Source: Chiloscyllium plagiosum
Taxonomy: Eukaryota
DNA: 64,000 nucleotides
Assembly: GCF_004010195.1 (NCBI RefSeq)
Contig: NC_057744.1
Location: forward strand, 23,755,401 to 23,819,400
Reading direction: 5' to 3'
Below, piece by piece: positions 7,393 to 55,655 of this stretch (the first letter of the stretch is position 1; each line of letters opens with the position of its first letter). The position numbers and the translations under genes are program-made. Under the pieces are notes generated by a model, which saw nothing but the letters and a program-made list of their open reading frames with translations, was not told the DNA's origin and searched no databases.

Positions 7393-7730
7393 CGTACATC
7401 TGTATCCTTGTCCTCTTCTCTCCAATGGAGGGTAGACATTTGGTAGCTTCACCATGCAGGTATAATTGTACTGAGAATGATCAAAAGAAACATTTTCAAT
7501 CTCCAGTGATGTGAAACAGCGTCTGAAACTACCTAGATTAACATCACGAACACAGGTCAGCTTCTTAATGTGGGAGTTCTTATTTCCCAGTAGTGACTCC
7601 CCCTGGAAATTAGCATGGATCCATTCATGATTAGTTCCATTATAAATCCATGTACAGTTTATTGTGACTGATTCTCCTGTCAAGACACTGAGCAGGCGCG
7701 GCTGAGTCACCTCTCCAATGAATGGTTCAC
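7393..7730 (-). pseudogene. Gene A V-set Ig exon (paralog of the gene B V exon), probably disabled
   Basis: Acceptor attccatcag| in phase 1. Encodes EVTQP..VTINC..W..LTC..C..LEIENVS..NYTC..VYPPL..GQG. Donor |gtaaag is in phase 0, so the exon is 338 nt versus 348 nt in the paralog. Confidence 0.8.
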
Positions 7731-8308
7731 CTGATGGAATAAAGCAGTTCACCATAATCATCATCATTTGAAATGTTCTATCCATTGGATCATCTATGAA
7801 AAACATGATAATTTTACGTGTCTTCTCTCTGATTTGCGATGGTTTGTTTCCTAGTTTTCTGTGTTAAAATGGTGGGGGGGTTTTTCCTGGTCTGAATTTG
7901 TTTTTTTATGAAACCAGATTCAAAATCTTTTGGAGATCTTTGTTTCCAGTTCTCTGAAGCTGCTTCTATCAATTTGAACAATTTGCAAAGAGAGGCCACC
8001 CTTTTTCTGAAGATCTTAAAAAAGAACTTTAAATATTCTGAATCCTATCGGCATTAGGATTCACGATCAGTATCCAAAGTATCGTCTCAACTGGAATGTA
8101 ACTTTTACACAGGAGGTTTAACCCAACCACCATGATGTGGATATTTGAACAGTGTCAAAATTGTCCAAGTGACAAGGTGATGGTTCACTTGCTCTCTCTG
8201 CAATTCCACACTATATAGAAAAGCTGAAATACCCGAAAAGGGGGAATCCTATACCTCCAGGCGCCAGCGCCGAGTGAATATCCCAATGTCCTGAGCAGAG
8301 CATCTTAC

Positions 8309-8357
8309 CTCGAACTGCTGTTTGCAAAATGAAAAGCAGTTTCAGCAGCTGCTGCAT
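8309..8357 (-). CDS. Gene A leader exon (MQQLLKLLFILQTAVRG)
   Basis: ATG at 8357, hydrophobic signal-like peptide, phase-1 donor G|GTAAGA matching the V-exon acceptor phase. Confidence 0.8.
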
Positions 8358-8399
8358 CTTTCAGAGTTTCCGAACGTTCCGAAAACTGTTTCAGCTCCA

Positions 8400-8560
8400 G
8401 ACCTGAAGCAGGAAGAGTGTTGTCCTTGAGAGGGTTTCAGACATCAGTGCAGGTGCCCCGCCAGGGGAATAATTTATATTTCAGCTCGAAACCAGCAGCA
8501 ACTGCGGAATGCCATGGGTTTTAGCTGCTGTAAGGAAGGAAGTTACGTAGGAAGCAAAGA
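8400..8560 (-). promoter_or_regulatory. Putative promoter of gene A
   Basis: TATAAA on the - strand at 8473-8478. Cluster of GGAAG (ETS/PU.1-type) sites at ~8411, 8534-8543 and 8550. Confidence 0.4.
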
Positions 8561-9667
8561 AAGTTTATTTTTCCCTTTATGGGTTCTGTTAACTCTGTCG
8601 TGGTGACACATGTATTTGGAGAACATGAAAATTCAGGATTAAAGAGATAAAGAGAACTAAATTTTATTGTGCGTCAGAGAAGCTGATCCATGTTTGGGAC
8701 AATTTCTCTGTTGTCTTCGATGAAGGAATAAAACAGGACCTGTCCTGGGATGGTTTGGCAAAGGACTTGAGTCTTCTTGAAGTTGACACTTAAATCTTTT
8801 TTTTCCAGTGTGCTTCTGCAAAGATGTTAAGTGAGGCTTGTACTTTCTTGAAATGCTTTGAGGTGGTCTGGCCTGGTCCATAACAGTAATGAAGGCAATG
8901 ATTATTTAATATTGAGAAGATGTTGCTGGGTGTAGATCAAAGGAAGAACAGTATTCCATTATAAAGGGCAGTGGGGTGCTTTGCAGTCTGCCTCCCTTGA
9001 CAATGTCACGTCCTTTGATCAGGAATTGATCAGGAATTTTGTCAAGGGATCACACTGCTGCATCACTCTACCCCTGATCTCCGCATGGGAGATGACAATC
9101 TGGGTGTAGAGAGCAAATGCATGTCAAAAGTCTACCTGGGGTTAATACAAACAATATTGTAATGAGGTTATTAAGTGGCCATCAATTAACCACTGAAGGA
9201 CACCAATTGGGGGTGCAAGGGAATGTTCAACTATGAAACGTTGAGGGATAACTATAAATGTTGCAGATATTGAAAGTTCTCTCCACCTTCGTCCCATTAC
9301 TTTCCTTTTAAGGTCACATGTACCTGAGTCCTGTTGCTGCTTTGATGCTGAACACTGAATACTGTCAAGGCAATCCTTTGTTCAGACCGTGATGTTGCAG
9401 ATAGCCTCAGGATCATTAACAGTAAATAAAACAGCAGCATTCTTCTGTTCACAAACACATTTTATAACCACAGGGAACCATCAAATCCAAGTCACTTATA
9501 TTATTGTTACTTCCAAACTATTGCTTGGAGAATGAAATGCCAGATTTATCTGGTAAAGCATAATTTCTAAAGAGGTTTCCTATCTTCTCTGCATTTGAGA
9601 AGAAAGCACTGTCTGATATCATTGAATAACATCTGTTACAGCTTTCAGAGTACTTAAATAGCTAAAA

Positions 9668-10134
9668 CCATAGAGTCCGTACAGTGTGAAAACAGGCCCT
9701 TCAGCCCAACAAGTCCACACTGACCCTCCGAAGAGTAACCTACCCAGACCCATTCCCCCTATCCTATGACTAGTGCACCTAACCTACACATCCCTGAACA
9801 ACTAAGCATGGCCAATTCACCTGATCTACACATCTTTGGATTCATCAGGATTCATTCCTGATGAAGGGCTTTTGCCTGAAACGTTGGTTTTCCTGCTCCT
9901 CGGATGCTGCCTGACCTGCTGTGCTTTTCCAGCACCACTCTAATCTAGACTCTGATATCCAGCATCTGTAGTCCTTACTTTTGCCCTATACGTCTTTGGG
10001 CTGTGGGAGGAATCACACACAGATACGGGGAGAATGTGCAAACTCCTCACAGACAGGGACCTAGGGCTGGAATCAAACCCGGGTCCCTGGCATTGTGTGG
10101 AAATAGTGCTCACCACTGAGCCACCATGCCACCC
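9668..10134 (-). mobile_element. HE1-type tRNA SINE interrupted by a Penelope-derived insert (9840-9985)
   Basis: tRNA head ggtggctcagtggtgagcact on the - strand and an HE1 body. Near-duplicated ctacacatctttgg / ctatacgtctttgg flank the insert. Confidence 0.8.
9858..9885 (+). ncRNA. Minimal type I hammerhead ribozyme core (Penelope-type)
   Basis: CTGATGA-A-GGGC-TTTT-GCCT-GAAAC-GTT. Confidence 0.55.
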
Positions 10135-10879
10135 CAAATGTAATTTAAAGTTTAAGTTGTCAGTGTTTTTGAACCTTTTCCAAAGTTTGAATATGGCATT
10201 GAAGTGAAAGGCAACTTTGTTAGCAATTATTGGTCTTCAGTCATTTTACAATAGTTTGTGCTTTTTGTCAAAGTTTTGATAGCTTGGACATCTTATGGAT
10301 CAATGCTTCTGTTACCTTTAATGATAAAAAAAAGTATACTTCCCCTGTTTGTATAGCTTGGACATATCTCATATCTTATTTGCAAATGTTGATTAAAACA
10401 ATTGTTTTCATCAGTCAAAAATATTAGAGCTTCTTATAATATTTCATTTTATTACCCTTTGACTAGAATTGCTTCCACATTTTCTTCCAAATATAATAGA
10501 TGAATTTGTACCACATTGGTATTAGATATAAAAGATGTACAGTTTAATTTCAAAGATACATCTGGTCTCCCTTTTTTCTACAACTGCAATATTTATTGTG
10601 AGGCAGTTTCATAAACACAGAAGAACAAAATAGTCACCATTCCCCTGACTAATTTTATCTTTTTGTACATGACCATTCTCCTGACTAACAATAAAACTAT
10701 CATCTTAGTAGTATCTATACATAACATAAATACTAATGCTTGTCACCAATTAAGATATATTGTAGAAAATTGTGTAAGAGCAACTAATTCTCAAAAAAGT
10801 ACTTTGTCTTCAAAGGTTTTTTCTTTGCCTTCTAGTCCTCTAGAAATGAATGGCAACATTGTGTGTGCCTTGCTAACTA

Positions 10880-11810
10880 ACAACTGAGCTTGTATATTAA
10901 TTTTAAGGGAATCCTAAGTTTCTTTGTGCTTCAGATTTCCAAAGCCTTTCCACATTTAGAAAATATTCTGCACATTTATTCCTCCTACCAAAGTGCATTG
11001 TCTCACACTTCCTCACATTGTATTCTATCTGCCACTTCTTTTCCTATTCTCCTAGCCTGTCCAAGTTCTTTTTCAGCCTCCCCACTTTAAAAACACTACC
11101 TATCCCTCCAGATGTGTCATCTGTAATCTCTGCAGCAATGCCCTTAGTTCATTCTTGCATTCTGTGTAAGATGAATAGTTGTGATCCCTACACTGACCCC
11201 ATGAGTCACTGGCTGCCATCCTGAAAAGGAGCTCTTTATCTCCACTCTCTGCTTTCTGCCAGTCAGCCAATCTTCTATCCTTGCCATGACCTTGATTCTA
11301 ATACAATGGACTCTTATGTTATTTAGCAGTCTCCCATGCAGCAGTTTGTCAAAGACCTTGTGGAAGTCCAAATTGATCAGATCCACTGACTCTTCTTTGG
11401 GAGAAAGTGAGGACTGCAGATGCTGGAGATCAGAGACAAGAGTGTGGTATTGGAAAACACAACAGGTCAGGCAGCATTCGAGGAGCAGGAGAGTCGACGT
11501 TTTGAGCATTAGCCCTTCATCAGGAATGAGTGTCTCTTCTTTGTCTAACTCAAAGAATTCTAACAGGCTTGTCAGGCATGATCTTCCTTGATAAAGCCAT
11601 GCTCACTCAGCACATGAAGACTGGCCTAAAGTATCTATTCAGATCCTCCACCATTTCTTTGTTTCCCGTTCCTACTTCTTCAGCCAGATTTTACAATAAT
11701 CCAATGATCCCTTTTAGCTCTCTCTTGCTAGTTACATACCTAACAGAAATTCTTGCAATCTTCTTTCATATTATTAGTCAGCTTACTCTCATATTTCATC
11801 TTTGCAATTA
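10880..11810 (-). mobile_element. Degenerate CR1 RT fragments with a nested Penelope-derived insert (~11400-11530)
   Basis: LDFHKVFDKLLHGRLL...WLTGRKQRV in ORF 11144..11509. ctcttctttg is duplicated around the insert. Confidence 0.75.
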
Positions 11811-11823
11811 CTCTCATATTTCA

Positions 11824-11844
11824 ACACACACACACACACACACA
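11824..11844 (+). repeat. (CA)n microsatellite
   Basis: About 10 AC units. Confidence 0.9.
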
Positions 11845-12239
11845 TATGCCAAACTAGTGTCTGGAACTGAATATTTGCAGAGTCCAGGATTAGATATTTA
11901 AAAATCTGGTTAAGAACCATTGGGCTCAATTTTAAGAGTCTGTGAAGTTTTAATTTTACTGTGTTGCAAATACTGATTTGGGTTGGCTGTCGGTCTCCAT
12001 GTTGTATTAATGAAATTTGAATTTAGTCTGGTTGATGGATGAAAATTTTCAAGAGTCCAGTCGAAAGGAAAATGCACAAAAAGAATGTCATATGCATGGA
12101 TTTGAAAGAAGACAAACAGTAAGCTGCTTAACAAGTAGGAAGTGCAAAAAAATCAGAAATAAATAAGACTTTTATTCATTCATGGAATATGGATTTTGTT
12201 TTGTCAAGGCTAACATGTATTGCCCATCTCATGAAGGGC

Positions 12240-17572: not shown

Positions 17573-18627
17573 TTTGTGCTGATTGATTATTAATAGCAAC
17601 CCATAGCATGATAATGAGCAAAATCAGTGATGGTTGAAAATCATGGGGTTATAGTTAGGCTCTCTTTTGTTAGGATGTTGATTAGTATGAGAATCAAAGG
17701 TTACAGGGAAAGGGCGGGAGGTCATCATGAGGAATGTCAGATCTTACTGAATGACTGAGCAGGCTTGTCGGGAGGAATGCCTATTCCTGCTCCTCTTTCT
17801 TCCGTCTAATTTGCTGGAGGCCTGAATCAAAAATAGAAACTGCTAGAGAAACTCAGCAAGTTTGCCAGTATCTGTGGAGAATAAACAGAGTTGGCGTTTT
17901 GTGTCCCATGACCTTTCTTCAGAGAAGAAAGCCCGAAAGATTTGTCTCACCCATTGGAGGGTTAGTGCAGACTCAATGGGCCAAATGGTATCTTTCTATA
18001 CTGTAGAGATTCTGTGATTCTGAATCAGTACAGTCCATTGTTATACAAAGTAAAGCAAAGGAGTCCTCACTCCCACCATCCCACAATCTGACATGCTCAG
18101 TTCAGCTTTGGAAGCTACCTCCAATTATTTGACCATAGAAACCATGACAGGTGCTAACTTCTGAGATCCAGTTTTCAAGCCATTGTCTTCAGTAAGAGAA
18201 TGTTCGAGCAAGTGTGTAACATTAGCAGACCGATCATACTTCCATTTTGTTCAGTATCTTTTATATTGATCTGTCTTTAATCTTTGTTTCTGTATTTTAG
18301 TTGGTAACTGTATCATTTTTTAATTAATCACTTTTCAGCAATAGTTTACAATAAACAAACATCTGACCTTCTTTAATAATTAAGCATTGCATGGTTACTG
18401 GTTATTTTTAAATTACAATACTTGAAAAAGCAAAGGAGGCTCATGTAGTTATGTACATTTACAGTTCGTGAATCATTCTGAGGACACACCTGGTCTGGTA
18501 ATGACATAATACTGCATAAACTGTCAGTAAATCTCCAGTAATGTTACCCTGAACTTCAATGGACTTGATATTATTACACTTCACTGGATATGTAATTACA
18601 TTCATGATGTTTTTCCCTTTCTTTCAG

Positions 18628-18921
18628 GACTCCCTGATACTTCCAGTGTGGACGGTGCTTTGGTTACTGGATGTAGATCTAACTGACCTGCTCTGTCTGG
18701 GGGTGTACTCTGAGAATATCTACTTTACTTGGACCTGTGTTGGAGCAAAAATCAACAAAAACATATCTGCTCACCCTTTACTGTCAATTGCAACTCCATT
18801 GCCAGCAGCAAACTTGAGATCATCCCTTAAGTAATCCATCATAGCACTGTCTGTAGGTGTCTGAAAAAATGTGTGACTTTCAAACAACCAGTAAGAGATG
18901 AGACCAAATGAGATGTTGTAC
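18628..18921 (+). pseudogene. Decayed C1-set Ig pseudo-exon
   Basis: Strong acceptor tttttccctttctttcag|. LLCL-GVYSENIYFTW and SSKLEIIP*VIHHSTVCRC...VV|gtcagt align, across frameshifts and stops, to the gene B C1 exon. Confidence 0.65.
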
Positions 18922-19986
18922 GTCAGTAGTCTCTTCAACACTGTTGCTTTTATCAGGATTGGCTCACAGTTCAAAGGAAAATGCTCCTGCCCAGAAAAGC
19001 AATTCCTCTTTAGTTTGTGGTTTTTGATTTTGTAAGCTTCCTTTAATTAGCGGCACAAGAAAGTTAAGGCATGAACATGAACTCATAGTCCAGACTGAAC
19101 TTGCACATAATACTGAGAATGAGTTACTTTGCTGGGGATACCCTCCATGTTTAAACATTATCCTGTCTGCTGGTTCAAGACCATTTTGAAACTGACATTG
19201 CTCCATTTGAGAATAAGCTGTGAGATACTCAGTGTGCTGATTAATATTTGCCAAATAGTTAATTGATAAAGAAATTAATCAGTTGTTCACCTCATGATTA
19301 ATTTGAATTATCTCTTGTAGCTAAATTCACTACATTCATTCAACCAATGGTAATTCACCAAAGGCATAATTCATTATGCATTTAAGTTGAACATATGACA
19401 TTTTGAAAACACTTCCTTTTACATGTGTGTCTTGTCTGGAATCAAAATTTATCATATTGTTCCCCGATCAAACTTAATCTTTGGAAACACCTTCAAATTA
19501 TGCAACATTGCAGACTTTTTCTTCTTCTTTAAACAATCCTTAAGCATTTAAAACCAAAGCTGGGATGTACCTGACTAATAGCATCTGAGGAATTTCTTGT
19601 CAGCTTTTCAAAGTGCCTTACATGATGGACTAAGGATCTTGACCATTTAAATAAGAGCAAAATACAGCAAATGCTGGAAATCTGATATAAAAGCAGTAAG
19701 TGCTGAACACACATGGCAGATCTGGTAGCATCTGTGGAGAGAGAAACAGAGTTAATGCTTCAGGGGCAGCACAATGGCTCAGTATTTAGCACTGTTGCCT
19801 CACAATACCAGGGACCTGGGTTCTATTCCATCCTTGGACAACTGTCTGTGTGGATTTGCACTTTCTCCCCATGTCTGCATGGGTTTCCTCTGGATGCTCC
19901 GGTTTTCTCCCACAATCCAAAGATGTACAAAGTTAAAAATCACACAACACCAGGTTATAGTCCAACAGGTTTAATTGGAAGCACAC

Positions 19987-20511: not shown

Positions 20512-20538
20512 GTGATAGTGGAGGGCTCGATCGTAACA

Positions 20539-21034
20539 NNNNNNNNNNNNNNNNNNNNNNNNNNNNNNNNNNNNNNNNNNNNNNNNNNNNNNNNNNNNNN
20601 NNNNNNNNNNNNNNNNNNNNNNNNNNNNNNNNNNNNNNNNNNNNNNNNNNNNNNNNNNNNNNNNNNNNNNNNNNNNNNNNNNNNNNNNNNNNNNNNNNNN
20701 NNNNNNNNNNNNNNNNNNNNNNNNNNNNNNNNNNNNNNNNNNNNNNNNNNNNNNNNNNNNNNNNNNNNNNNNNNNNNNNNNNNNNNNNNNNNNNNNNNNN
20801 NNNNNNNNNNNNNNNNNNNNNNNNNNNNNNNNNNNNNNNNNNNNNNNNNNNNNNNNNNNNNNNNNNNNNNNNNNNNNNNNNNNNNNNNNNNNNNNNNNNN
20901 NNNNNNNNNNNNNNNNNNNNNNNNNNNNNNNNNNNNNNNNNNNNNNNNNNNNNNNNNNNNNNNNNNNNNNNNNNNNNNNNNNNNNNNNNNNNNNNNNNNN
21001 NNNNNNNNNNNNNNNNNNNNNNNNNNNNNNNNNN
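20539..21034. other. Assembly gap (496 N)
   Basis: Run of n. Confidence 1.
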
Positions 21035-24255: not shown

Positions 24256-27200
24256 AGAACAAAAAACAAAGAAAATTACAGCACAGGAACAGGCCCTTCT
24301 GCCTGTGCAAATCCAAATCCTTGATCTAAACCTGTCACCTATTTTCCAAGGATCTGCATCCCTCTGCTCCCTGCTCATTCATGTATCTGTCCAGGTACAT
24401 CTTAAATGACACTCTTGTGCCCTCCTCTACCACCTCCACTGGCAATGCATTCCAGGCACTCACCACCTTCTGCATAAAGAACTTTCCATGCATATTTCCC
24501 TTAAACACTTTCCCTCGTAATCCCTAGTAATTGAGTCTCCCACTCTGGGAGAAAGCTTCTTGCTATCCACCCTGTCTATACCTCTCATGATTTTGTAGAC
24601 CTTGTTCAGGTCCCCACTCAACATCCGTCTTTCTAATTAAAATAATCCTAATCTACTCAACCTCTCCTCATAGCTAGCATTCTCCATACCAGGCAACATC
24701 CTGATGAGCCTCCTCTGAACACTTTCCAAAGCATCCACATTCTTCTGTTAATGTGGTGACCAGAACTGTATGCAGTATTCTAAATGTAGCAGAACCAAAG
24801 TCCTATACAACTGTAACATGACCTGCTAACTCTTGTACTCAATACCCCGTCTGATGAAGGAAAGCATGCCGTATGCTTTTTTGACTACTTTATTGACCTG
24901 TGTTGCTACCTTCAGGGTACAATGGACTTGAACACCCAGAGCTCTCTATAGATCAATTTTCCCCATGGCTTTTCCATTTACTGGACAGTTCACTGTTGAA
25001 TTGGATCTTCCAAAATGCATCACCTCGCATTTGTCTGGATTGAACTCCATCTGTCATTTTTCTACCCAACTCTCCCAATATATCGATATTCTTCTGTATT
25101 TTCTGACAGACCCCTTCATTATCTGCTACTCCATCAATCTTAGTGCCAAGGAACAGCACGGTGGCTCAGTGGTTAGCACTGCTGCCTCACAGCGCCAGGG
25201 ACCCGGGTTCGATTCCAGCCTTGGGCAACTGTGTGGAGTTTGCACATTCTCCCCGTGTCTGCGTGGGTTTCGTCTGGGTGCTCTGGTTTCCTCCCACAAT
25301 CCAAAGGTGTACTAGTCAGGTAAATTGGCCATGCTAAATTGCCCATAGTGCTCAGTGCATTAGTCAGGGGTAAATATAGCGTCTGGGTGGATTGCTGTTT
25401 GGAGGGTCGGTATAGACTTGCAGGGCTGAAGGGTTTGTTTCCACACTATAGGGAATCTAATCTGCAAACTTGTTAATCAGACCAGCTATACTTCCTCCAG
25501 ATCATTTATGTATATCACAAACAACATAGATCCCTGTGTAACACCATTGGCCACAGTTCTCCAGTTTGAGAAACTTCCTTCGACTATTACTCTCAGTCTC
25601 CTGTTGCCCAGCCAGTTCTCTATCAATATATCCCTAGACCCCATGTGACTTCACGTTCTCCATCAGCTTACCATGGCGGAACCTTATCATCACCTCACTG
25701 AAGTTCATGTATATGATATCTGCAGCCCTTCCCTCATCAATCAACTTTGTCACTTCCTCAAAAAATTCTATTAAGGTGGTAATAATATTCCCTGTACATA
25801 ACCATGCTGCCTATCACTGATAAACCCATTTTCTTCCAAATGTAAATAGAGCTTATCCTTCAGTATCTTCTCTAGCAGCTTCCCTACCACTGACATCAGG
25901 CTCACCAATCTATAATTACTGGGATTATCCTTGCTACCCTTCTTAAACAAGTGGACAACATGAGTAACTCTCCAGTCCTCCGGAACCTCACCCGTGTTCA
26001 AGGATTCTGAAAACATATCAGCTAAGGCCACAGCTATTTCCTCTCTCCCTTCCCTCAGTAACCTGAGATAGATCCCATTCGGACCTGGGGATTTGTCCAC
26101 CTTAATGCCTTTTAGAATAGCCACCAGCTCCCCCCCCCTCTTTATACCAACTTGATCTAGAGTAATTAATCATCTATCCCTAACCTCAACATCCGTCATG
26201 TCCCTCTCCTCAGTGAATACTGTCGTAAAGTACTCATCGAGAATCTCAACCATTTTCTTTGACTCCATACATAACTTCCCTCCTTTGTCCTTGAGTGGGC
26301 CGACCCTTTCTCGAGTTACCCTCTTGCTCCTTATATAAGAATAAAAGGCTTTGAGATTTTCCTTAACCCTGTTTGCTAAAGATATTTCATGACCCCTTTT
26401 AGCCCTCAATACAGACTGGTCCTAGTTTTCCAATATTCTTTCAAAGCTTTGTCTGTTTTCAGTTGCCTAGACCTTATGAATGCTCTTAGCTAGTCTCACA
26501 ATTTCACCTGATATCCATGGTTCCTTAATCTTGCCATTTATATCCCTTATTTTCATAGGGACATGTCTGTCCTGCACTCTAATCAACCTCTCTTTATAAG
26601 CCTCCCACATATCAAATGTGGATTTACCCTCAAACAGATGCTCCCAATCCACATTCCCCAGCTCCTGCCAAAATTTGCTATAGTTGGCCTTTCTCCAATT
26701 TAGCTCTCTTCCTTTAGGGTCACTCTCATCTTTGTCCATTAATATTCTAAAAGTTACCAGAATTGTGATCACTATTCCCAAAGTAATTCCCTACTGAAAC
26801 TTCAGTCACCTGGCCGGGCTCATTTCCCAACATCAGGTACAGTCTGACCCCTTACTGAATTGGCCTATTTACATACTGCTCTATAAAACCCTCCTGGATG
26901 CTCCTTCCAAATTATGCTCCATCTAAACCACCAACACTAAGTAAATCCCAGTCAATGTTTGGAAATTAAAACCTGCCATCACAACCACCCTTTTGTTTCT
27001 ACATCTTTCCATAACATGTCTATATATTTGCACCTTTATCTCACATTCGCTGTTGGGAGGCCTGTAGTACAGACCTAACATTGTTACCGCGCCCTTCCTA
27101 TTTCTGAGCTCTGCCCATGTTGCCTCACTGCTCAAGTCCTCCATAGTGTCCTCCTTCAGCACAGCTGTGATACCCTTTCTGTCCAGGAATGCAACTCCTC

Positions 27201-28800
27201 CACCCCTTCTACTTTCCTCTCTATCCCACCTGAAGCATCAGTATCCTGGGATATTTAGTTGCCAATCATGACCTTCCCTCACCCAAGTATCATAATAACA
27301 ATAACATCATACTACCAGTACTAATCCAAGCCCTAAGTTCATCTGCCTTACCTATTACACTTCTCCCATTAAAACAAATGCACCTCAGATCACCTATCCA
27401 TTTGCGTTCATCATCTGCTCCCGACCTACTCTTCCCTTTAATCATGCTGATTTCATTATCTCGTTCCTTACAGGCTTTAGTTACTATCTCCTTACCTTCC
27501 ACTAACCTCCTCATTTGGGTCCGATTCCCCCTGTCACATTCGTTTAAACCCTTCACTACAGTGTTAGCAAAAGCACTCCCTCGGATATTGATTCCAGTCC
27601 GGCCCAAGCGTAGACTGTCCAATTTGTAATAGTCCCACCTCCCCCAGAGCTGGTCTGAATTTCCAGAAATCTGAACCCCTCTCTCTTGCACCATCTCTCA
27701 AGCCACACATTCGTCCTGCCTATTCTTTCATTTCTACTCTGACTAGCGTGTGGTACTGGTCGCAATCCTGAGATTACTACCTCTGAGGTCCTACTTTTTA
27801 ACTTGGCTTCTAACTCCCTAAATTTTGCTTGTAGGACCTCATCCCATTTTTTACCTATATCATTGGTGCCTACATGCCCATGACAATTAGCTGTTCACCC
27901 TCCCCCTTGAGAATATTCTGCAGTCAATCCGAGACATCCCTGACCTGTGCACCTGAGAGGCAACATACCATTCAGGAGTCATGTTTTTGACCACAGAAGC
28001 ATCTATCTACTTCCCTTACAATTGAATCCCCTGTGTCTATAGCCCTTCCACTCTTTTTCCCAGCCTTCTGTACAGCAGAGCCAGACATGGTGCCATGAAC
28101 CTGGCTATTGCTGCCTTCTCCTGGTGAGCCATATAGTATCCCAAACAGCAAACCTGTTTTGGATGGAGATGAACGCAGGGGATACCTGCACTACCTTCCT
28201 GCTCTTTCTCTGCCTTTTGGTCACCCATTCCCTTTCTCCCTCAGCAATCCCAATCTGCAGTGCATCCAACTCGCTAAATGTGATATCTACAATATCCTCA
28301 GCATCGCAGATGCTCCAAACTGAGTCCATCTGCAATTCCAGCACCATCATGAGGCTTAACAAGAGCTGCAGCTGGACACACTTCTGCACATGAAGGAGTC
28401 AGGAACATCAGCTGTGTTCCTGAGCTCCCACATTGAGCAAGGGAGCATAACACAGGTCTGCAACCCCCTGCCAGTTTTACTCTTAAGTTTAACTTAGTCT
28501 AACCATAATATCAAATAGTAGATAAATGAAATTAAAAATTACCAACCACACTACCAGCAAATGATGAAAAAGAAAAAGAAAAACCTTATCAACACAACCA
28601 TAGGGTCTTTTTTTTTTAGTTAGAGGAGGCGGGCAGGTGGGAGACACTACACATGTAGTGTCTTGGGTCTATCCACTTCCCAAATATATCAGTTCACTCA
28701 CCTTCCCAGTGTGCAATTTGACCGCTCTCACTCAGTTCCTCATTCTCATCGCTCCTGCTAATGCTGCAAAATGGAGGCCACTGATTCCATGAAGTAATTA
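24256..28800 (-). mobile_element. Near full-length decayed CR1 LINE (ORF1 with esterase-like domain, APE endonuclease, RT, 3' UTR)
   Basis: In order on the - strand: ORF1 KCVQLQLL and WC..EGFRF / DSLRL; endonuclease GLYYRPPNS...MAGFNF; RT KSPGPNGIY, PEDWR, QHG; CR1 3' UTR at ~24256-24330. Confidence 0.85.
25152..25462 (+). mobile_element. HE1-type SINE nested in CR1
   Basis: Head cagcacggtggctcagtggttagcactgctgcctcacagcgccaggg, aatctaatct tail. Confidence 0.85.
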
Positions 28801-37939: not shown

Positions 37940-37997
37940 ATGGCGAATATGTTACCGCAGCTGATCGTTCTCTCTCTGGCATGGACTGGTTTGGAAG
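37940..37997 (+). CDS. Gene B exon 1: signal peptide MANMLPQLIVLSLAWTGLEG
   Basis: ATG at 37940, hydrophobic core, phase-1 donor G|GTTAGT. Confidence 0.75.
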
Positions 37998-40749
37998 GTT
38001 AGTAAGTCCTCTATTCCAATCTCTGTCACACAGCTCAAATTTAAATTGATCACAAATATTACTGATGCTGAATAAAAACTAAGATTACTGCTGGATCATG
38101 TAAAACAATACAAATATAATAGTTATATCATTGACATTTCCACATATGTTCTAAAGATGTTCACATTTATATAGAATGAATGAATGGAAATTTTGAACAA
38201 TAAATTGCATAATTATCTGACATTTATAAGTTGAATACTTTGCAGGAAATGTCCTGTGAATTGAAGTTGAGAGGGAGGTTCTGACACTAAAATCCATAGT
38301 GTCTAAAAGTAATGTGATTTGTCGCTGTATGGAATCCTTAAGAGTACAAACGGATGTCAGTTTATAACATAACTCTAACATCATGTTACAACAATTACTT
38401 AATTAGTCAACTTAGATTATATACAATAAAAATTACAAGCTACTAATAAAACTCAACTTTGTAGGAGCGGGCTGGTTGATTACAGCCTGTACTCTGACTA
38501 TAATGAACAAATATGACTATATTCTTCTTGGATTTGTAACTTGAAAACAAACTGTCTACTCTTAGGTGTGATTCTGCAATTAGGCAGCACTTACTGAGTA
38601 CACTGATAACTGCATAAAAAAACAATCTAAGATTATCAGTAGAGATTTTAACATGCCTTGTTTACACTCATTAGAATTGTCATCCATTCATACACAGTCT
38701 TCTCTTCTTTGCAAACATAGGAACTCTATAAATCATACTCTGTGAAATTCACTTCAAAATTTAGGCCACAATATTAACTTAGAAGCATATTGCAAATTGG
38801 GGCAATGTGTCTTATAAAAACAGAAATGTAAAACGATTAATAATCTAAAGCAAAGAACTACAGGTGCTGGAGATTGGAAATAAAACAGAAATTACCGGAG
38901 AAACTAAGCAGGTCTGGCAGCATTTGTGGAGAGAAAGTAGAGTAAAAATTTCAAGTCTGGCGATTCAATGGATTTAAAACTTTAACTATATTTATTTTCC
39001 ACTGGTGCTGCCAGACCTGCTGACCTCCAGCAATTTCTGCTTTTGAATATAGAAAGATGTATGGAGAGAAGTAGGCTATTCCATGCATGCTGTAAAAGAG
39101 CTTCCAGCCTAACCAACATTCAGTTCCTTGTCCATAGATATATAGGCTATGATACTTCAAGGCTCGATATCTTTTTTCTTTCTCCTGAATTTGTATGCCT
39201 TTACAATCTCGTCAGGCAGTGAGTTCCTGACTCCCTTCACTGAGTGGCTGAAAAAACAAAGTCACTTCAGTTTCTTTCTATTGCTTCTATCAAGCTATGG
39301 CCCCTGGTTGTTGATAGCTCTGCAAATGGAAATAGGCCATTTCTAACAATTCTATCTAGATCCCTCATAATGCTATACAAATAAGTTATATCCCCATTCA
39401 GCTTCCTCATTTTAAAGAAAGAAACCTTGATATCACATGTAAAATCCATATACAGGCTTGATACATTTAATGATGACTGCAGATCGTCAAATATTTTGCA
39501 GGCTGAGTTAGCTATATTCTTGATTGGCAATGAAGTAAAAGGATATAGGAGGTAGCAGAAAACTAGATTTAAAGCTACATTCATCAGGCATGAAGTTATG
39601 AAATAGTGGAGAGAGTTCGAAGGGCCAATTTTCATTTTGTTTTACATGCATAAGACATGTGTCCATACATGATTGCACATGAAAGTGGTGGTGGAAAGTT
39701 GTCTTCATGAAACATTGCTATCTTGCAATGTAAGTATGCCCTCGGTTTTCTATTTTTGCCCTTCTACACAGTAGATGTTGGGTGTTTGGGATGTGCTGTG
39801 GAAGGGACCACAGTGATTGTGCACTTACAGATTATATGCAAAGCTGTTCATTGTGCTTTAGTGGTGGAGGAAATGACGGCTGAACTATGGATGAGGCACC
39901 AATCAGTGTCTTGGTTGGCAGTGAGTTTCTTGAGTCTTACTGAAGATATACCCATCCAAGCAACTGAAGAGTATTGCATCAAACTCCTGATTTGCGTTCT
40001 GTAGATTATAGACACTGTGGAGACAGGGGCGAGTTATTTGTCACTGAATTTCTAGTCTCTAATCTGCTGTTGATATAGTATTTATTGGGCTGTTCTAGCT
40101 CAGTTTCTAGTCAATGATAATACTCAGGTCGTTGATAGTCGGTGAATCCAATTATATCAATGTCAAGTGGAGAGGGTCAGAACTTTTCTTCACAGAGATG
40201 GTCATTTCATGCACTTATGCAATGTAAATAGTATTTGCCACTTATAAGATCAAGCCTGAATGTTGCCCAGGTCTTGTTATGGACGTATGCTGTTCCAATG
40301 TCTGAGGAGTCATGAATAGTGCTAAACATTGTGCAATCATTAGTGACTCTCCATTTCTACTCCTATAAAGAAAGGATGGTCATTCATGAAGCACACAAAG
40401 ATGGTTAGGCCTAGGATTTTATCCTGAGGAGCTCTTGAAATCTTGATACTGTGATGATTGATGCCCAAGCACAAAGCCATAAATTCCATTTTCTGTGTCT
40501 GGAGCTGTCAGCTGTAGAGTTCGTTAGCTGAATAGTTTAACAATGTGACATTTAATCATATGATGTTCCATTGTTGGTGACATTTGATACTGCCCAAAAA
40601 TAAGGCAGAATGTCTGGGGAGTGTTTCGATAGGTCACTCAAGATAGTTCAAGTGTCAGTGAGCTGCATTTCAAGGTCAGTCCATTTTTGGATTTAGCTGT
40701 CAGAGAAGAGATCAGTGGGCTGAAAATGGCTTCACAAGGATCCAGTGAT

Positions 40750-45521: not shown

Positions 45522-45729
45522 ATGATTTGGAGATGCCGGTGTTGGACTGGGGTGTACAAAGTTAAAAATCACACAACACCAGGTTATAGTCCAACAGGTT
45601 TAATTGGAAGCACAGTAGCTTTCGGAGCAACGCTCCTTCATCAGGTGATTGTGACAAAATCACACTATCCGAAAGCTAGTGTGCTTCCAATTAAACCTGT
45701 TGGACTATAACCTGGTGTTGTGTGATTTT
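45522..45729. mobile_element. Palindromic Penelope-derived insert in gene B intron 1, with an intact antisense hammerhead core at 45616-45644
   Basis: Inverted arms. gaactaattgtt (45510-45521) and gaattaattgtt (45730-45741) flank the insert. Confidence 0.8.
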
Positions 45730-46999: not shown

Positions 47000-47347
47000 G
47001 TAATCCAGTGATCAGGGAGGTGTCTCAGCCGGCTCTGGTCAGCATCCTGAGAGGAAAGCCAGCCACATTAAACTGTACATTTAATTATATTGCAAATGAC
47101 AGTAATTGGATCTATGTATCCTGGTACAAGACCTCACATGGGATGACTGAGAGATACAATTCAGAGAATAATCTGACCTGCATCCCTGACATTGCTCCAG
47201 GTATTTTTCACCACTGTGCTGCAACTCTGAAGATCGAAAACGTTTCTTTTAGAATGTCTGATTCGAATTATACATGTGTAGTGAAGGTACCAACTATCTA
47301 CCCACCAATCGAGGAAAAAGGACCAGGAACACAATTGCATGTTGTTG
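47000..47347 (+). CDS. Gene B exon 2: V-set Ig domain with J-like G strand (NKp30/CD28/NFAM1-like VJ type)
   Basis: ttccattag| ... |gtaaag, phase 1-1, 348 nt. VSQP..ATLNC..VSWYK..C-x11-C..LKIENVS..NYTC..IYPPI..GPGTQLHV. Confidence 0.92.
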
Positions 47348-49087: not shown

Positions 49088-49426
49088 TTCCACCATCTCC
49101 TCCAGCAATTTCTGTTACTCAGGAAACATTAGTAGCAGAGAAGGTATCTTCACTGTACTGCCTTGCTGGGGGATTTTATCCTCAGTCTATCTCCATTAAA
49201 TGGTTGCAAGCAATCCTAGACAATTCTCAATCTTCACCAGCAGATGCTGAAACAAGATACAGGACTCAAGAGTTCACCTTCAGCAACATGGATGGAACAT
49301 TTAACACTACTAGTCAATTGACATTTGTTCCCACTTCACAAGACCATGGATTAATCTATACTTGTCAGGTCCATCATTCAACTAGTGAAAAGCAAATAAT
49401 AAAGCAGATAAGGCTAAAGGTGAATT
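49088..49426 (+). CDS. Gene B exon 3: C1-set Ig domain
   Basis: gttacag| ... |gtaagt, phase 1-1, 339 nt. CLAGGFYPQSISIKW, NMDGTFNTTSQL and YTCQVHH (Ig/MHC signature YxCxVxH). Confidence 0.92.
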
Positions 49427-50645
49427 GTAAGTATATTACCTTAATGTGTTTTTCTGATGGGCGTAACTGTGGCATACACCTAATGTAAGCCTGAAGGGGA
49501 CTAGATGCCAAATATTTCACTGAAGCTTTACAAGACGATTATGCAATTTTAGCCTAGAGTGTACATATGATGACAGGCTGAGTTGGAATGTCCAAGATAA
49601 CGTTGTCCTTTCAACTCTGCTATATGGGTCCAAAATCCAACTCAGATGATTGAGATGAAGACATTCTGGTTGTAATCACCATAAAGAGTACAAGAATCTC
49701 AATGAACCTGGTCCTGCAGGAGGAGTGTTTTTTATTGAACTTATCATTTCATAGTGTAGAAAGAATTCAACTTTGAATCTGAATGTGGTTGGATTTGGGA
49801 AATGCCATGTGATAATTGGAATTGCAATGCCCTTGAAGTAAACTAACTTGAACAACACTGGTAGGTAGGAACACTGGAACTTCAGCTGTGATATAAGAGT
49901 AAATTGAAAAGTTCCTCTGAAGAACTTGCACAGTTCTGGTGGGCGAAATATGTGCCTTACAATTTGATAATATTTTTAAATTTGTTCATAGAAGTGATAA
50001 GTTGGATCTGTGCTTACTCCTCCCTGAAAAGAATGGTTTCAAACCAATGGATCCATGTCTAAACTGAGGAAAATAATGATAAAAAGAGAAACCAGGAGAC
50101 ATTTCTTTCACATACTCAAAAACTTAGATTAAGGGAAATTTTGAGATGATGAGGTTTATCTTCATAAAATGGTTTTAGGGCCTTTCCCTATTCACAAAAC
50201 ATCTTGACAAAGACAGACTAATTTTCTGGGAGAGAATGATGGAATACAGTTTTACACTTAAAGCTTTGCATACTTTTTATCACAACTACATACCTGGGGA
50301 GCAATGACTATGATTCTTGTGGTGGTACAAGAGGAAAGGAAGCAGAAATTCGATAGCAAGTTAACGCTTTTCTCTCTCTCAGTACTGATTTGAATGTAAT
50401 CTTGTGAGTAGTTGTCTGTTTGTCTTTTGCTTAGGAATTAATGTGAATAAGATTCCATTTAACAACCCATTCTTCCATAAGTGCTTTGTTTTTAAAGAGT
50501 TATGTGGCCTGGCAAATTACAATACAGAAAAGATTAATTTGAATGCTTTTAATTCCAGTCAGTTTTATTTATTCTCTGACATATTCTCTGAGGTTGAGTC
50601 TGCTTCTATGACTAATTATTTCTCATTTCCTTTGTTCTGATTCAG

Positions 50646-50963
50646 ATGGTCCAAAACTTGTCATATATTACAGGACTTCTGACACAGATATGTTCCATCG
50701 ACTGGACCAAGAACACATCCATGTTAAGCATCAGACATTTCTCGAACTAAACTGTACAGCGGACAGTAACCCAGTAGCCACAGTGATATGGAAAAAGATA
50801 TCCCAGGAACAAAGCTTGCAATTGGCTGCTGGAGTAAACATTTCAATACTGAAGATAGCAAGTATTGAATATTCAGACAGTGGAGCATATCTTTGTGGAG
50901 CACAAAATGATTATGGCTTTCAAGAATTTCCTGTAAATATATACCTAAAATCTGATTTGGGAA
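50646..50963 (+). CDS. Gene B exon 4: C2/I-set Ig domain
   Basis: gattcag| ... |gtaagt, phase 1-1, 318 nt. YGP..LNCTADSNPVATVIWKK..LKI..DSGAYLCGAQNDYG. Confidence 0.9.
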
Positions 50964-51121: not shown

Positions 51122-51310
51122 ATAGTTAGAGACAGAATAACTGCAGATGCTGGAATCCAAGGTAGATAAGCAGGAGGTTGGAAGAACACAGCAAGCCAGG
51201 CAGCGTAAGGAGGTAGACAAATAGATTCCGGAGTTACACCCGAAATGTCGACTTCTCCACCTCCTGGTGCTGCCTGGCTTTCTGTATTCTTCAGCTTCCC
51301 ATTTGTCTAT
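51122..51310. mobile_element. Palindromic Penelope-derived insert with 11-bp TSD
   Basis: CTATAGATAAA occurs at 51111-51121 and 51311-51321, with inverted arms inside. Confidence 0.7.
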
Positions 51311-51699
51311 CTATAGATAAACTATGCCAGTGATCAATATGGTCATAAGCAATAAAAAATAGAATCTCAAAGACATTAGGTAAATGCATGAATTCTTCAA
51401 TGTTTAATCTTTAGTTCTTCAACATGACAAAAATATATATGGATTTGTCTTCCATTCTTAGAGATTACTAGAAATTTCATTTTCCTTCACTTGAACCATC
51501 TAACTCTAACGAGATTGCGAAATATTAATATGTACGTGACCAGGCACTCATCCAAAAAGTCTGTATTCCACAGAGAAGTTAACCACAAAGAGGAACACCA
51601 CTTTAGGTCTTAGTTTGGAAGTTTACTTGTGGAAGCTGAAGGAAGCCCAGGCCAATTGGAAACCAGGCAAATGACATTTAACTTCAGCAGAAAGTGGAG

Positions 51700-52070
51700 T
51701 AGTAGGGGAGAAGAACAGACAGAGAATGGGGCAAAGGAGGTTTAGAAGGGGGAGAGGAAGAGAAGGAAGAGGAGAGAGAAAGAGTGAGGAGAGAGGAGGA
51801 TGGAAGAGGAGGGATGGGGAGGAGAAGAGGAAGAAAAGGGAAAGTACAGGAGACAGGAAGAGAAATGGGGTGGGAGAGAAGTCTGGGGAGCAAAGGTGTT
51901 TGGAGAATATGGAATGTGGGTGGGAGAGGGAAGCGGAAGGGGATGAAGAAGGTGGAGGGAGGAAGATAGGAGGAAATGAGGGGGAGAGGAGAGAGGGAGG
52001 GAAGGGTACAGGAAGGAAGAGGGACATGGAGGGGTGAGGGTTGGGATGGAGTGAAAGGTGCTGATGAAGG
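51700..52070 (+). repeat. Polypurine (GA-rich) low-complexity tract
   Basis: About 370 bp, overwhelmingly G/A. Confidence 0.85.
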
Positions 52071-52547
52071 GGTGATCTCCTTTGGGGGTATCTTGTGCTT
52101 ACCTGAGGCACGTCTCAAAAGCCCTTTAACCTCCCGTTCCCAGTTCACTAAGACATGTAAACCTGGTAAAAACTTACTAGACACTCTGGTCCCAGTGTTG
52201 TGTGCTCCCCACTGGAACTGCCCGCAATCCCTAAGGTGGCCACTGCCAAGCCTGACGCTGCATGTCTGCTGAGCTCACATCCCTACAAAAAGCATGTCCT
52301 CCCTAAACAGGAGCAGAAATCTAATCTGAAGTGAATCAATGTTCCTCCCAGTGTTAAATGGTGCAGGGCAGCTAGTATGTCTGTTGATGGGCTTGCCCAC
52401 AACTGTTTAGTCAGGACAGGAGGTGAGACCTGTTAGACTCATCATTTCCTGTGTTGTTAGAATCAGGTCCTGATGAAAGTTCCTGACCTGAAATATCGAC
52501 GCTGCTTGACCTGCTGTACTTTCTCCAGCTCCACACTTTATTGACTT

Positions 52548-52835
52548 TGGTGGCACAGTGGTTAGCACTGCTGCCTCACAGCGCCAGAGACCCAGGTTCA
52601 ATTCCCGCCTCAGGCGACTGTGTGGAGTTTGCACATTCTCCCAGTGTCTGCATGGGTTTCCTCCGGTTTCCTCCCACAGTCCAAAGATGTGCAGGCCAGG
52701 TGAATTGGCCATGCTAAATTGCCCATAGTGTTAGGTGAAGGGGTAAATGTAGGGGTAGGATGGGTTGCGCTTCAGCGGGTCGGTGTGGATTTATTGGGCC
52801 GAAGGGCCTGTTTCCACATTAAGTAATCTAATCTA
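52548..52835 (+). mobile_element. HE1-type SINE
   Basis: Head ggtggcacagtggttagcactgctgcc, taatctaatct tail. Confidence 0.85.
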
Positions 52836-53576
52836 ACCAGGCCAAGCAGTGACCATGACACAGGGATGGCTTTTTAATGTACCTGACCAGCTTGGTATGG
52901 GGCAGTCCTCTGAAGTAACCCATTGTCACCCCTCTTCCCCCATGCCCTCTCCAGATCCCTGTCTCTCTCTTCCTCATATCCCTTCCAAGAGCCCCATGAA
53001 ATCCAGCCCTGCACATTTTATGGCATCAATTCTCTGTAAGCTGCTTGTGTTGATATCTGATATATCAGTATAATTAATCTCTGCCAATCGCAACGCATCT
53101 TCTTCCACACTCCTTAAGAGCCCCAGCCTTCTTTGTGTCCTCTAAAACAGAAGTTAAATACAAGTTAACATAGAAATGTCAAAATACTGGCAAAATAAGG
53201 GCAACAGCTTATCTTGATACCCAGACCGCACACTGGAAACATTTGAAAACCACTCAAGCACAGATGTGTTAGAAACTTTTCCATCTATTCGAGGTTAGAA
53301 TAGAATCAGATTGCTATTGAGGTTTTTGAGGCTGCCTGAAGCCATGTCATAAAAACTGAACTGAGGCATCATACAAACAACCGAGGGAACAAATTTATTT
53401 GTCATTGTGAGCTATGAAAATTAAAACAAAAATGTTTATTTGTTTGAAACTTCACTTTGTATTTTGTACCTTTTATTCCAGTAAACCTGGAATTTAATTT
53501 AATTCATAGTGATCACCAATCATTAATGCTAAAGTGGATTGGATGAAACTCAAACTGCTTTTCTTTTCCTTCACAG

Positions 53577-53660
53577 GTAGTTTTCCTGTGCGATCTGTAA
53601 CATTCCTAGTCTTTCTGGTCTCTGTCATTTCGTTACTGATCTGGGGCAGTGAATGGAAAG
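53577..53660 (+). CDS. Gene B exon 5: transmembrane exon (SSFPVRSVTFLVFLVSVISLLIWGSEWK)
   Basis: Strong acceptor ttttcttttccttcacag|, 84 nt, phase 1-1, donor G|GTAAAT. Hydrophobic segment with an Arg near its N-terminal end. Confidence 0.85.
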
Positions 53661-54489
53661 GTAAATTTATCAATTGTTGACATCAAGCACAAATGTGAGC
53701 TGACAGTTATAAAAGATACCGACTCATTTACAAAATAAAAAACAACTGTGGATGGTGGAAATCTAAAACAAAAACTGAAACTGCTGGAGAAACTCAGCAG
53801 GTCTGGCAGCAATTGTAGAGAGAAAGCAGAATTAACCTTTCGGGTTCAGTGACCCTGAGTTCTGGAAAAGGGTCACGAGACATGAAATGTTAATTCTGCT
53901 TTCTCTTCACAGACACTGCAAGAACCTGCTGGGTTTCTCCAGCAATTTCTGTTTTTGTGTTGACCCATTCACCAGTTGATATGATGCGATTTATTTTACT
54001 AGGAGACTTCCCCTTTGTTATAGGTGCTCAGTGGCTGAGGGGCAGAATATCAGGTAGGAGATACACACTGACGGTCACTTCCTAGGCCCTTGCTGTAGGC
54101 ACCCTCTGCTTTCATGTCTCTATGACCATCATTCTGTGGGTCTTGTCCCCACTTGTTTACATGTGGCCTGGGTCACTCTGTGATCCTGGAACTCTGAGGC
54201 TTATTCTTTTTTTGGGAACAGCCAAGGCCTTCCAAATGGTGCCACGAACAAAAGAACTGTGAGCCTCAGAGCTCAGTCAGGAATATTTCTACCCTCGGGA
54301 TCTAGACTCCAGGAGAAGGCCTGCAGATGGACGACCTGCACCACTTGATTGGCAAGTGGTTCAGTGGGTCTTCTCAAAAACAGAGGCCCTTACAAGTCTC
54401 TTGGTGGCTCTCTGGCTGACAGGTAGGAACTCCAATGCCGCAAAAAGATTCCATCCACTGTTCAAATACAAGCAAAGGAGCATGAAAGA

Positions 54490-55155
54490 CAGGTAACCAC
54501 GGCAGCTAACACAATGTTGGCTATTACTTCAAGAGAGTTGGAGTACAAGTTTAGGGAAATCTTTTATAAGGGGCTGGTGAGACCACATCTCGAGTTCTGT
54601 GAGGAGTATTATACTGCTTATTTAAGGTCCACATATTTAAAGAAATATATTATTTCATTGGAGGCAATTCAGTGAAGGTTCATGAGAATGATCCCTGTTA
54701 AGAAAAAATTGCCCTTTGAACAAAGATTAAATAGATTGGCACTCTATTCACTAGAATTTAGAAAAATGAGAGGTGAGCTCATTGAAACACACAGGATTCT
54801 TAACTGGCTTAACAGGGCAAATGATGAAAGGATGTTTCCCTCAGCGGGAAAGGCTAGAACCAGAGGGAAAAGTTTTGGAATATAGGGGTGCCAATTTAAG
54901 ACTGAAATGGGAAGGGATTTCTTGTCACAGAGGGTTGAGAGTCTTTGGAACTCCTTGCCATAGAGAACTGTGGAGGCAGAGTCTGTGTTTATATTTAAAG
55001 GTGAGATAGATTCTTGAATAGCCAAAGAATCAAGGGTTCTGGAGAAAGAATTGGAATATGTATGTGAAGAACTTCAGATCAGCCGTGATCCTATTGAATG
55101 GTGGAGCAGGCCTGAGGGGCCGATTGGCCTACTTCTGTTCCTTCTTATAGTCTTT
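54490..55155 (+). mobile_element. CR1 3' fragment
   Basis: RLNRLALYSLEFRKMRGELIETHRIL and a 3' UTR. Confidence 0.8.
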
Positions 55156-55346
55156 TATAGGAGCAGTCAAATACATCATGAAACAGATAAGAAATGCAGA
55201 TGAGAAAGAATTCAATGCAATAATAATCAAATAAAGCTGAAAGAAATCATTTTCTAGCAACAAAGCATATGCAGAGACTGGCAGGATGAAAAAATGCTCT
55301 AATTGCAGAGAATTCCTAATAATGTAAAATTCTTCTCATTTCACAG

Positions 55347-55371
55347 ATCGATACTGCCCTTGCAACTCTAG
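55347..55371 (+). CDS. Gene B exon 6: 25-nt cytoplasmic micro-exon (DRYCPCNS)
   Basis: ttcttctcatttcacag| ... AG|GTAAGC, phase 1-2, open in frame. Confidence 0.65.
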
Positions 55372-55564
55372 GTAAGCCACAACCTAAGCTCTTTAGTTCT
55401 TTAGTAGAAGCTTCTCTAGCATAACTGGTGAATCAACAACTGTTCAAGATAGTTTGCAGAGGGGGCAGAGGCACTATGCACACAGGAAACAAACCCTAAT
55501 CATTGCTATGTACAGGAAATTCTAAACCTCAGACAGGCACTAATTTTGTTTTGTACTCTCACAG

Positions 55565-55655
55565 TTATCAGAGTTCAACTGAACTGAAGTTTCCAAGAGT
55601 AAACAACAGGGCTCGACCCAGGAGGATGTTGCAATTATCAGGCTGGAAGCAATAA
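55565..55655 (+). CDS. Gene B putative terminal exon (SYQSSTELKFPRVNNRARPRRMLQLSGWKQ*)
   Basis: Branch-like cactaat plus a pyrimidine tract and acag|, compatible with phase 2. The TAA overlaps AATAAA at 55651-55656. Confidence 0.45.

What the first reader, a model, noticed from the sequence alone, without database searches (positions are those of the whole stretch)
7393..55655. Birth-and-death IgSF receptor cluster: head-to-head paralogs with a pseudo-exon between them
Seen: gene A (-) and gene B (+) point away from each other about 30 kb apart. Their V domains share about 46/110 residues by hand alignment, and a decayed C1 exon lies between them. Known: paired leukocyte receptor families (KIR/LILR, SIRP, NITR, CD300) evolve as clusters of intact, pseudogenised and oppositely signalling copies. 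Inference: this window samples such a cluster in a shark.
Basis: partly seen in the sequence, partly recalled or inferred. Interest (0 to 1): 0.7.

Follow-up and report, generated by a model that had tools for sequence, protein, structure and literature searches.

The report
Ancient shark on/off immune receptor pair
This shark DNA holds part of a small three-gene family of antibody-fold surface proteins, with relatives in rays, coelacanth, paddlefish and gar, that likely work as paired "off" and "on" immune receptors; one likely "on" gene is intact, and the other is broken and carries a near-copy of the likely "off" gene's outer domain.

Summary
Gene A (-) and gene B (+) start 29.6 kb apart, their V domains share 46 of 108 residues, and the 18.6 kb piece is a decayed C1 exon, an inverted copy from gene A. 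The reading needs correcting. The genome search finds only three genes and one fragment, within 135 kb. Gene A is itself broken three times, once by a stop at its membrane arginine. B is intact and spliced in a related species, with a membrane arginine and no tyrosine motif. The ITIM-bearing gene C starts 32 kb left of A's start, outside the window. A's leader and V region are 96-100% identical to C's, while its I exon is 31% diverged, pointing to repeated gene conversion, as in SIGLEC11/16. The same V-C1-I design, with ITIM or charged-membrane tails, occurs in sharks, rays, coelacanth, paddlefish, gar and eel relatives. Databases call them Siglecs, but 0 of 32 V domains have the Siglec arginine; the V is joined-VJ and CD28-like. 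Verdict: a small, old, likely paired receptor family with local decay, not a fast expansion. I found no paper describing it. Signalling, ligand and cell type are untested.

The parts
8309..8357 (-). Gene A leader exon, 49 of 49 bases identical to gene C's
7393..7730 (-). Gene A V exon (joined VJ type); 7-base deletion near its 3' end puts the donor out of phase, so the spliced message stops at codon 149. A's C1, I and TM exons lie 10-13 kb left of the window (places in the full report)
7293..8548 (-). Tract shared with gene C (5' flank, leader, intron 1, V exon): 0-5% mismatch, rising to 13% just after the V exon; likely gene-conversion tract
6374..6968 (-). Older intron-2 homology between A and C, 29% mismatch
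18046..19652 (+). Inverted partial copy of gene A's C1 region with both flanking introns (about 29% mismatch throughout); pseudo-exon at 18628-18921 with stops and frameshifts; no V, I or TM exon found for it
37949..37997 (+). Gene B leader exon (predicted; resembles the leader of Heptranchias P0014)
47000..47347 (+). Gene B V exon, joined VJ type with GxG motif and an extra Cys pair
49088..49426 (+). Gene B C1-set exon
   Evidence: Pfam C1-set E 5.5e-13; spliced in contigs
50646..50963 (+). Gene B I-set exon
   Evidence: Pfam I-set E 2.8e-9; GT..AG joint 49426-50646 in a contig of X1
53577..53660 (+). Gene B transmembrane exon with Arg near the outer end
55347..55371 (+). Gene B first tail exon
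58028..58121 (+). Gene B last coding exon; 45-residue tail without tyrosine motif

Best explanation
The locus is a small cluster of three V-C1-I membrane-protein genes and one fragment that likely forms a paired immune-receptor system: C is predicted to inhibit, B is predicted to activate, and A is a broken, formerly likely activating twin of C. Shown: exon structure, lesions, tail types, identity gradient, copy number as a lower bound, splicing of B in a relative. Inferred: C's three tyrosine motifs recruit SH2 phosphatases after ligand binding; the membrane Arg of B (and once of A) pairs with an ITAM adaptor of the FcR-gamma/zeta kind; repeated gene conversion between A and C kept their ligand-binding ends alike, so that a microbe or ligand engaging C would also have triggered A; A then decayed, leaving B, whose V is only 42% identical to C's and which probably sees a different or only overlapping ligand. 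The direction of conversion, the ligand and the cell type are unknown.
For: Of 29 family proteins examined, 17 have at least one ITIM-like motif, 7 have Arg/Lys in the TM window and no such motif, none has both, 5 fit neither. This matches the definition of paired receptors in PMC3533184 (passages). C's motifs recur in coelacanth P0137. B's TM exon matches sawshark P0001 and paddlefish P0139 (0 of 1000 shuffles as high each). A zeta/FcR-gamma-family TM exon with Asp exists in G000. A/C mismatch is layered: 0-2% 5' flank, leader and first half of intron 1, 4% V, 14% C1, 29-31% intron 2 and I exon. In the V tree A groups with C (100/100) and a clade of TM-Arg A-types is rejected; in the I tree A+C+Hemiscyllium C is rejected (p 0.031) and the A-type clade is not (p 0.062). 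Coelacanth P0032 (TM Arg) and P0137 (ITIM) are 96-98% identical per domain; Heptranchias pair 85% in C1. B is spliced V-C1 and C1-I in contigs of two runs from a related species.
Against: No functional test. B's Arg sits at the outer edge of a modestly hydrophobic helix (mean 2.1) and may not bind an adaptor. B and C share only 42/29/37% in V/C1/I, low for a working pair, so this shark may have lost its true activating twin. The I-domain tests are borderline (p 0.053 and 0.2; 0.031 and 0.062), and constrained searches may overstate the large V and C1 rejections. A recent duplication of C's 5' end into an old gene would give a similar picture. The gar pair comes from two annotations and may be one gene; the coelacanth pair was judged as two genes from scattered differences and separate names only. 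V-only trees neither recover nor reject one clade of shark and bony-fish members (p 0.42); synteny was not tested. Of 17 listed differences in B's exons against the relative, 12 change the residue, so no strong short-term constraint is shown. Expression of C was not tested.
Confidence: 0.7

Rival explanations
1. A rapidly expanding birth-and-death cluster like KIR/LILR, of which the window shows a few copies.
For: One whole pseudogene and one decayed fragment among four copies; an extra V with a lost Cys in the Hemiscyllium model P0009 and a short twin in skate.
Against: Only 3 V, 4 C1, 3 I exons found genome-wide and none more in 200 kb scanned with profiles; 1-3 members per species among database hits; B and C lineages are old.
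Confidence: 0.12
2. Divergent Siglecs that bind sialic acid, as the automatic names say.
For: RefSeq names; whole-protein language-model neighbours are MAG/CD22/Siglec clusters; fold search lists MAG and CD22 beside nectins; tail motifs resemble CD33-type tails (recalled).
Against: 0 of 32 V domains have Arg after the F-strand Cys position and 31 of 32 keep that Cys; V profile against frog MAG 7% probability versus 97% for a CD28-like protein; MAG/CD22-like genes cluster on another contig, C47.
Confidence: 0.07
3. Nectin-like adhesion molecules without a paired immune role; the TM Arg is incidental and the A/C likeness is selectively neutral conversion between neighbours.
For: Three-domain layout closest to nectin-3 and Necl-4 in the fold search; A is dead, so its likeness to C need not be adaptive; B differences look near neutral in a small sample.
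Against: Tail types split cleanly; near-identical ectodomains with opposite tails recur in coelacanth; joined VJ domain with GxG.
Confidence: 0.11

Closest known systems
SIGLEC11/SIGLEC16 paired receptors (PMC5701461; abstract and section 5 read)
   Same: Inhibitory and activating neighbours, a short 5' tract holding the upstream region and V exon kept 97-99% alike by conversion, activating partner often a pseudogene.
   Different: No Siglec arginine, joined VJ domain, three Ig domains; family reaches from sharks to coelacanth.
CD28 family incl. CD28H and CD28HL1-3 (PMC11599192; abstract, sections 16 and 23 read)
   Same: V domain with YxC..[IV]P..GxG loop; best named non-family V match is a paddlefish CD28-like protein; retention in sharks, chondrosteans, gar and elopomorphs resembles CD28HL2.
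   Different: CD28 members have a single V; these have V-C1-I, and TM-Arg forms. The CD28-like comparator was picked by the same profile, so that match is biased upward.
SIRP alpha/beta (V-C1-C1, layout recalled)
   Same: Joined VJ plus C1; inhibitory and adaptor-coupled members (PMC3533184 passages).
   Different: Third domain is I-set; SIRP V scores 2-19 bits on the shark V profile against 36-82 for bony-fish members.
LILRA, CD89, GPVI-type FcR-gamma-coupled receptors
   Same: Arg at the outer end of the TM helix and short tail (LILRA from PMC3533184; the motif position is recalled).
   Different: Their ectodomains are C2-type only (recalled).
UrIg/UrIg2 and other non-rearranging VJ-C1 genes (PMC12227049, PMC10751288; passages read)
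   Same: Single-exon VJ followed by C1, in sharks.
   Different: One C1 then an I domain, own signalling tails, present in bony fishes, no MHC or antigen-receptor linkage seen.

Membership tests
Paired IgSF receptors (kind) | Member with uncharged TM and ITIMs | tested here: met
   Gene C, three motifs
Paired IgSF receptors (kind) | Member with TM Arg/Lys and short tail | tested here: met
   Gene B intact; gene A broken at that codon; 7 of 29 family proteins
Paired IgSF receptors (kind) | Highly similar ectodomains, small cluster | tested here: met
   A/C V 94%, coelacanth pair 96-98%; B/C only 42%; 135 kb cluster
Paired IgSF receptors (kind) | Opposite signalling, adaptor binding, shared ligand, overlapping cells | not testable with these tools
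   Adaptor gene family present; nothing functional
Siglec | Essential F-strand Arg in the V domain | tested here: not met
   0 of 32; Arg requirement from PMC7226832 passages, its position from frog MAG P0019 and recall
Siglec | V domain without the usual F-strand Cys (recalled) | tested here: not met
   31 of 32 keep it
Siglec | Located with the MAG/CD22-like cluster | tested here: not met
   That cluster is on C47, this one on C35
Siglec | Sialic acid binding | not testable with these tools
   needs glycan array
CD28 family | Single extracellular V domain | tested here: not met
   three domains
CD28 family | V loop motif YxC..IP..GxG | tested here: met
CD28 family | B7-family ligand | not testable with these tools
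   needs binding assays
SIRP | V-C1-C1 ectodomain | tested here: not met
   third domain I-set; low V scores
SIRP | Synteny with SIRP loci | not tested
   no annotated vertebrate genomes at hand
NITR / CD300 / KIR-LILR | V-I, single V, or C2-only ectodomains (recalled) | tested here: not met
   V-C1-I with a Pfam C1-set domain
Birth-and-death cluster | Many recent copies and lineage-specific expansion | tested here: not met
   (lower bounds)
Birth-and-death cluster | Positive selection on V loops | tested here: inconclusive
   A vs C V: 6 changing, 6 silent in 108 codons; B vs relative 5 changing, 2 silent of 7 listed in V; no orthologous DNA set

The most novel reading that the evidence does not exclude
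An overlooked paired checkpoint system as old as jawed vertebrates: a CD28-like joined-VJ domain on a C1-I stalk, with ITIM and adaptor-coupled forms homogenised again and again in sharks, coelacanth and gar, lost from tetrapods and most teleosts, and reading a B7-like ligand such as the single-copy V gene 22 kb beyond gene B. It would link the CD28 family, SIRP-like VJ-C1 receptors and the antigen-receptor precursor.
Probability: 0.12. Interest if true: 0.78.

Novelty: new variant of a known kind. Interest (0 to 1): 0.5.

Why it matters
Paired receptors are usually seen as young, lineage-specific families. Here one design, with matching tail motifs, appears in sharks, rays, coelacanth, paddlefish, gar and eel relatives, hidden under automatic names such as Siglec, MAG, SIRP and CADM. 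It adds a joined-VJ plus C1 receptor to the short list used to reason about the origin of antigen receptors and co-signalling, and shows the SIGLEC11/16 pattern (5' conversion, dead activating twin) in a shark. The genes are directly testable by expression, adaptor and phosphatase assays.

Tried and rejected
Structure of B's V alone (11-row alignment): mean pLDDT 64; both fold searches gave mostly weak non-Ig sandwiches, so the model was discarded. Complex of B's V with the neighbouring B7-like V: not folded, no verdict. Conversion of B's V by A/C: not supported (p 0.43). Leader candidates for B at 39149 and 46.7 kb rejected (the first looks repeat-derived by recall; no RNA cover at the second). 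Exon 55565-55655 as B's main last exon rejected (the frame used was wrong and was redone). No V, I or TM exon for the 18.6 kb fragment, but a 496-base gap at 20539-21034 could hide one. Looking for neighbours gave only a CBS-like gene, a mesothelin-like gene and one Ig V exon. Literature: nine searches listed no paper on this family; Ohta et al. 2019 (PMC6761025) is not held and the supplements of PMC11599192 were not read, so the family may be tabulated there. Four supplement files of PMC11372145 gave no hit for the accession or for 'siglec'. Earlier-scan look-ups by sequence and place were empty.
Full report
Observation. The window lies at G000:C35:23755401-23819400. Six-frame reading and Pfam show a V exon on the minus strand at 7.4-7.7 kb and V, C1 and I exons on the plus strand at 47.0, 49.1 and 50.6 kb. 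The two V domains share 46 of 108 residues. The leaders are at 8357-8309 (-) and 37949-37997 (+), 29.6 kb apart. The 18.6 kb piece is a decayed C1 exon far above chance (230 against at most 36 in 198 random stretches). RefSeq XP_043532322.1 (P0006, a bamboo shark) uses the 58.0 kb exon too.

The cluster. With 200 kb fetched on each side, the order is C(-), A(-), fragment(+), B(+) over 135 kb. Parts left of the window, all on the minus strand of G000:C35: gene C 23678349-23731827; gene A C1 exon 23744763-23745065, I exon 23743447-23743752, TM exon 23742670-23742764. Genome-wide searches find 3 V exons, 4 close C1 exons including the fragment (a fifth row is a weak hit on C37) and 3 I exons of the family (its other 6 rows are hits of 29-36 bits elsewhere, in the range of A's broken exon); the tool calls such counts lower bounds. 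Profile scans of 200 kb add none. Gene C has 10 exons with canonical splice sites, 496 residues, an uncharged TM and three ITIM-like motifs. Gene B gives 418 residues, a TM with Arg near its outer end and a 45-residue tail without tyrosine motif. Contigs from two of three runs of a related species, guessed to be RNA, join B's V to C1 and C1 to I. Gene A has a 7-base deletion at the end of V, a 16-base deletion in I and a stop where sawshark P0013 and Heptranchias P0014 have the TM Arg; its TM exon marks it as that short-tailed type (E 2.7e-12). The fragment is a 1.6 kb inverted copy of A's C1 region; exon and introns are equally diverged (about 29%), as expected if it was never constrained (inference). 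A CBS-like gene lies about 150 kb left of the window and a mesothelin-like gene about 175 kb right of it (weak).

Conversion. Mismatch between A and C rises in steps: 0-2% over the 5' flank, leader and first half of intron 1; 4-5% over the rest of intron 1 and V; 14% in C1; 29-31% in intron 2 and the I exon; the TM exons align no better than about half. Trees agree: A's V sits with C's (100/100) and a clade of the three TM-Arg A-types is rejected, whereas for the I domain A with C is weakly rejected (p 0.031) and the A-type clade is not (p 0.062) (with the simpler model p 0.053 and 0.2). I read this as repeated conversion of different ages. A single recent duplication of C's 5' end explains the V but not the intermediate C1. 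SIGLEC11/16 show the same 5' tract (PMC5701461, section 5 read).

The family. Searches with names for 20 of the 120 profile hits looked up gave members in sharks, two batoids, coelacanth, paddlefish, sturgeon, gar, bowfin, bonefish, tarpon and conger. Of 161 proteins held, 35 have V, C1 and I in order above 40 bits, all from these groups (profiles partly built from them). Out of sample, shark-only profiles give the ten bony-fish proteins tested 36-82, 49-75 and 38-87 bits per domain, summing to 132-209, against at most 96 for 117 other proteins. No chimaera, lungfish, tetrapod or later-teleost member was found, which is weak evidence of absence. Of 29 members examined, 17 have ITIM-like tails, 7 a TM Arg or Lys without them, none both, 5 neither. 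Coelacanth P0032 and P0137 are 96-98% identical per domain with opposite tails; gar and skate also have near-identical twins, but the gar pair may be one gene and the skate twin has no charge. B-type genes form their own branch with sawshark (100/100), and B's TM matches paddlefish P0139, though that protein's ectodomain does not group with B. Orthology of shark and bony-fish members rests on layout, scores and motifs; V-only trees do not resolve it and synteny was not tested.

What it is not. The names say Siglec, and whole-protein features and fold point to MAG, CD22 and nectins (the model is of the coelacanth member, pLDDT mostly 63-96 over the Ig domains with one loop near 50). But none of 32 V domains has the Siglec Arg, 31 keep the F-strand Cys, and the MAG/CD22-like cluster is on C47. 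The V ends in GxG within one exon; its nearest solved sequences are antibody light-chain and TCR-alpha V domains and its nearest named non-member is CD28-like. CD28-family members have one V only (PMC11599192, abstract and sections 16, 23 read). SIRP has a second C1 (recalled).

Mechanism. Following the paired-receptor rule (PMC3533184, passages), C is predicted to inhibit through SH2 phosphatases and B to activate through an ITAM adaptor; a zeta/FcR-gamma-family TM exon is in G000. A would have been C's matched activating twin before it decayed. All of this signalling is inferred. Selection on V loops could not be tested properly.

Literature seen. Search listings and abstract openings. Passages only: PMC7226832, PMC3533184, PMC12227049, PMC10751288. 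Supplements searched by term: PMC11372145. Not held: PMC6761025. I found no description of this family; unread supplements and subscription papers may hold one. Earlier scan notes describe other shark paired families (unchecked), which lowers the surprise of pairing as such.

Verdict. Real, correctly seen, partly misread: a small and old family shaped by conversion and local decay. Interest 0.5; new variant of a known kind.

Noticed in passing
L025:6775-7074 (-), 22 kb right of gene B's end, outside the window: Single-copy open Ig V exon with good splice sites; weak matches to CD80 (E 0.008) and PD-L1, so possibly B7-like; no leader, C or TM exon found.
   Followed up: partly
P0009 (Hemiscyllium model): Two tandem V domains, the first lacking its F-strand Cys; may be A's leader and V spliced onto C, which would mean A is also damaged there or that a read-through form exists.
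   Followed up: partly
window 7393-7372 (-): If intron 2 of A is retained or the shifted C1 frame is read, a short secreted V-only product would result (stop at codon 149 when spliced); not tested.
   Followed up: no
P0145, P0102, P0058, P0126: Other shark and sawfish joined-VJ receptors (V-V-TM, one with tyrosine motifs; V-C1-TM) surfaced as weaker hits; separate families.
   Followed up: no
G000:C47:5.6-8.4 Mb: Cluster of MAG/CD22-like exons, many with stops; looks like a larger birth-and-death locus than this one.
   Followed up: no
window 1-543, 3506-3970, 25774-28400: Decayed LINE pieces (RVT_1 hits; a GDSL-esterase-like piece at 27559-27894); 4338-5720 looks Penelope-like by recall, no Pfam hit.
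   Followed up: partly
window 45606-45686 (-): ARAGORN tRNA-Asp call inside a repeat with several copies in the window; probably a SINE.
   Followed up: no
window 20539-21034: 496-base assembly gap among near-identical repeat copies, close to where the fragment's I exon would lie.
   Followed up: partly
window 10541-10665: 124-base match to the region just after gene A's TM exon (E 8e-13); rare repeat or further remnant.
   Followed up: no
gene C, G000:C35:23694809-23723742: A 29 kb intron separates the TM exon from the first tail exon.
   Followed up: no
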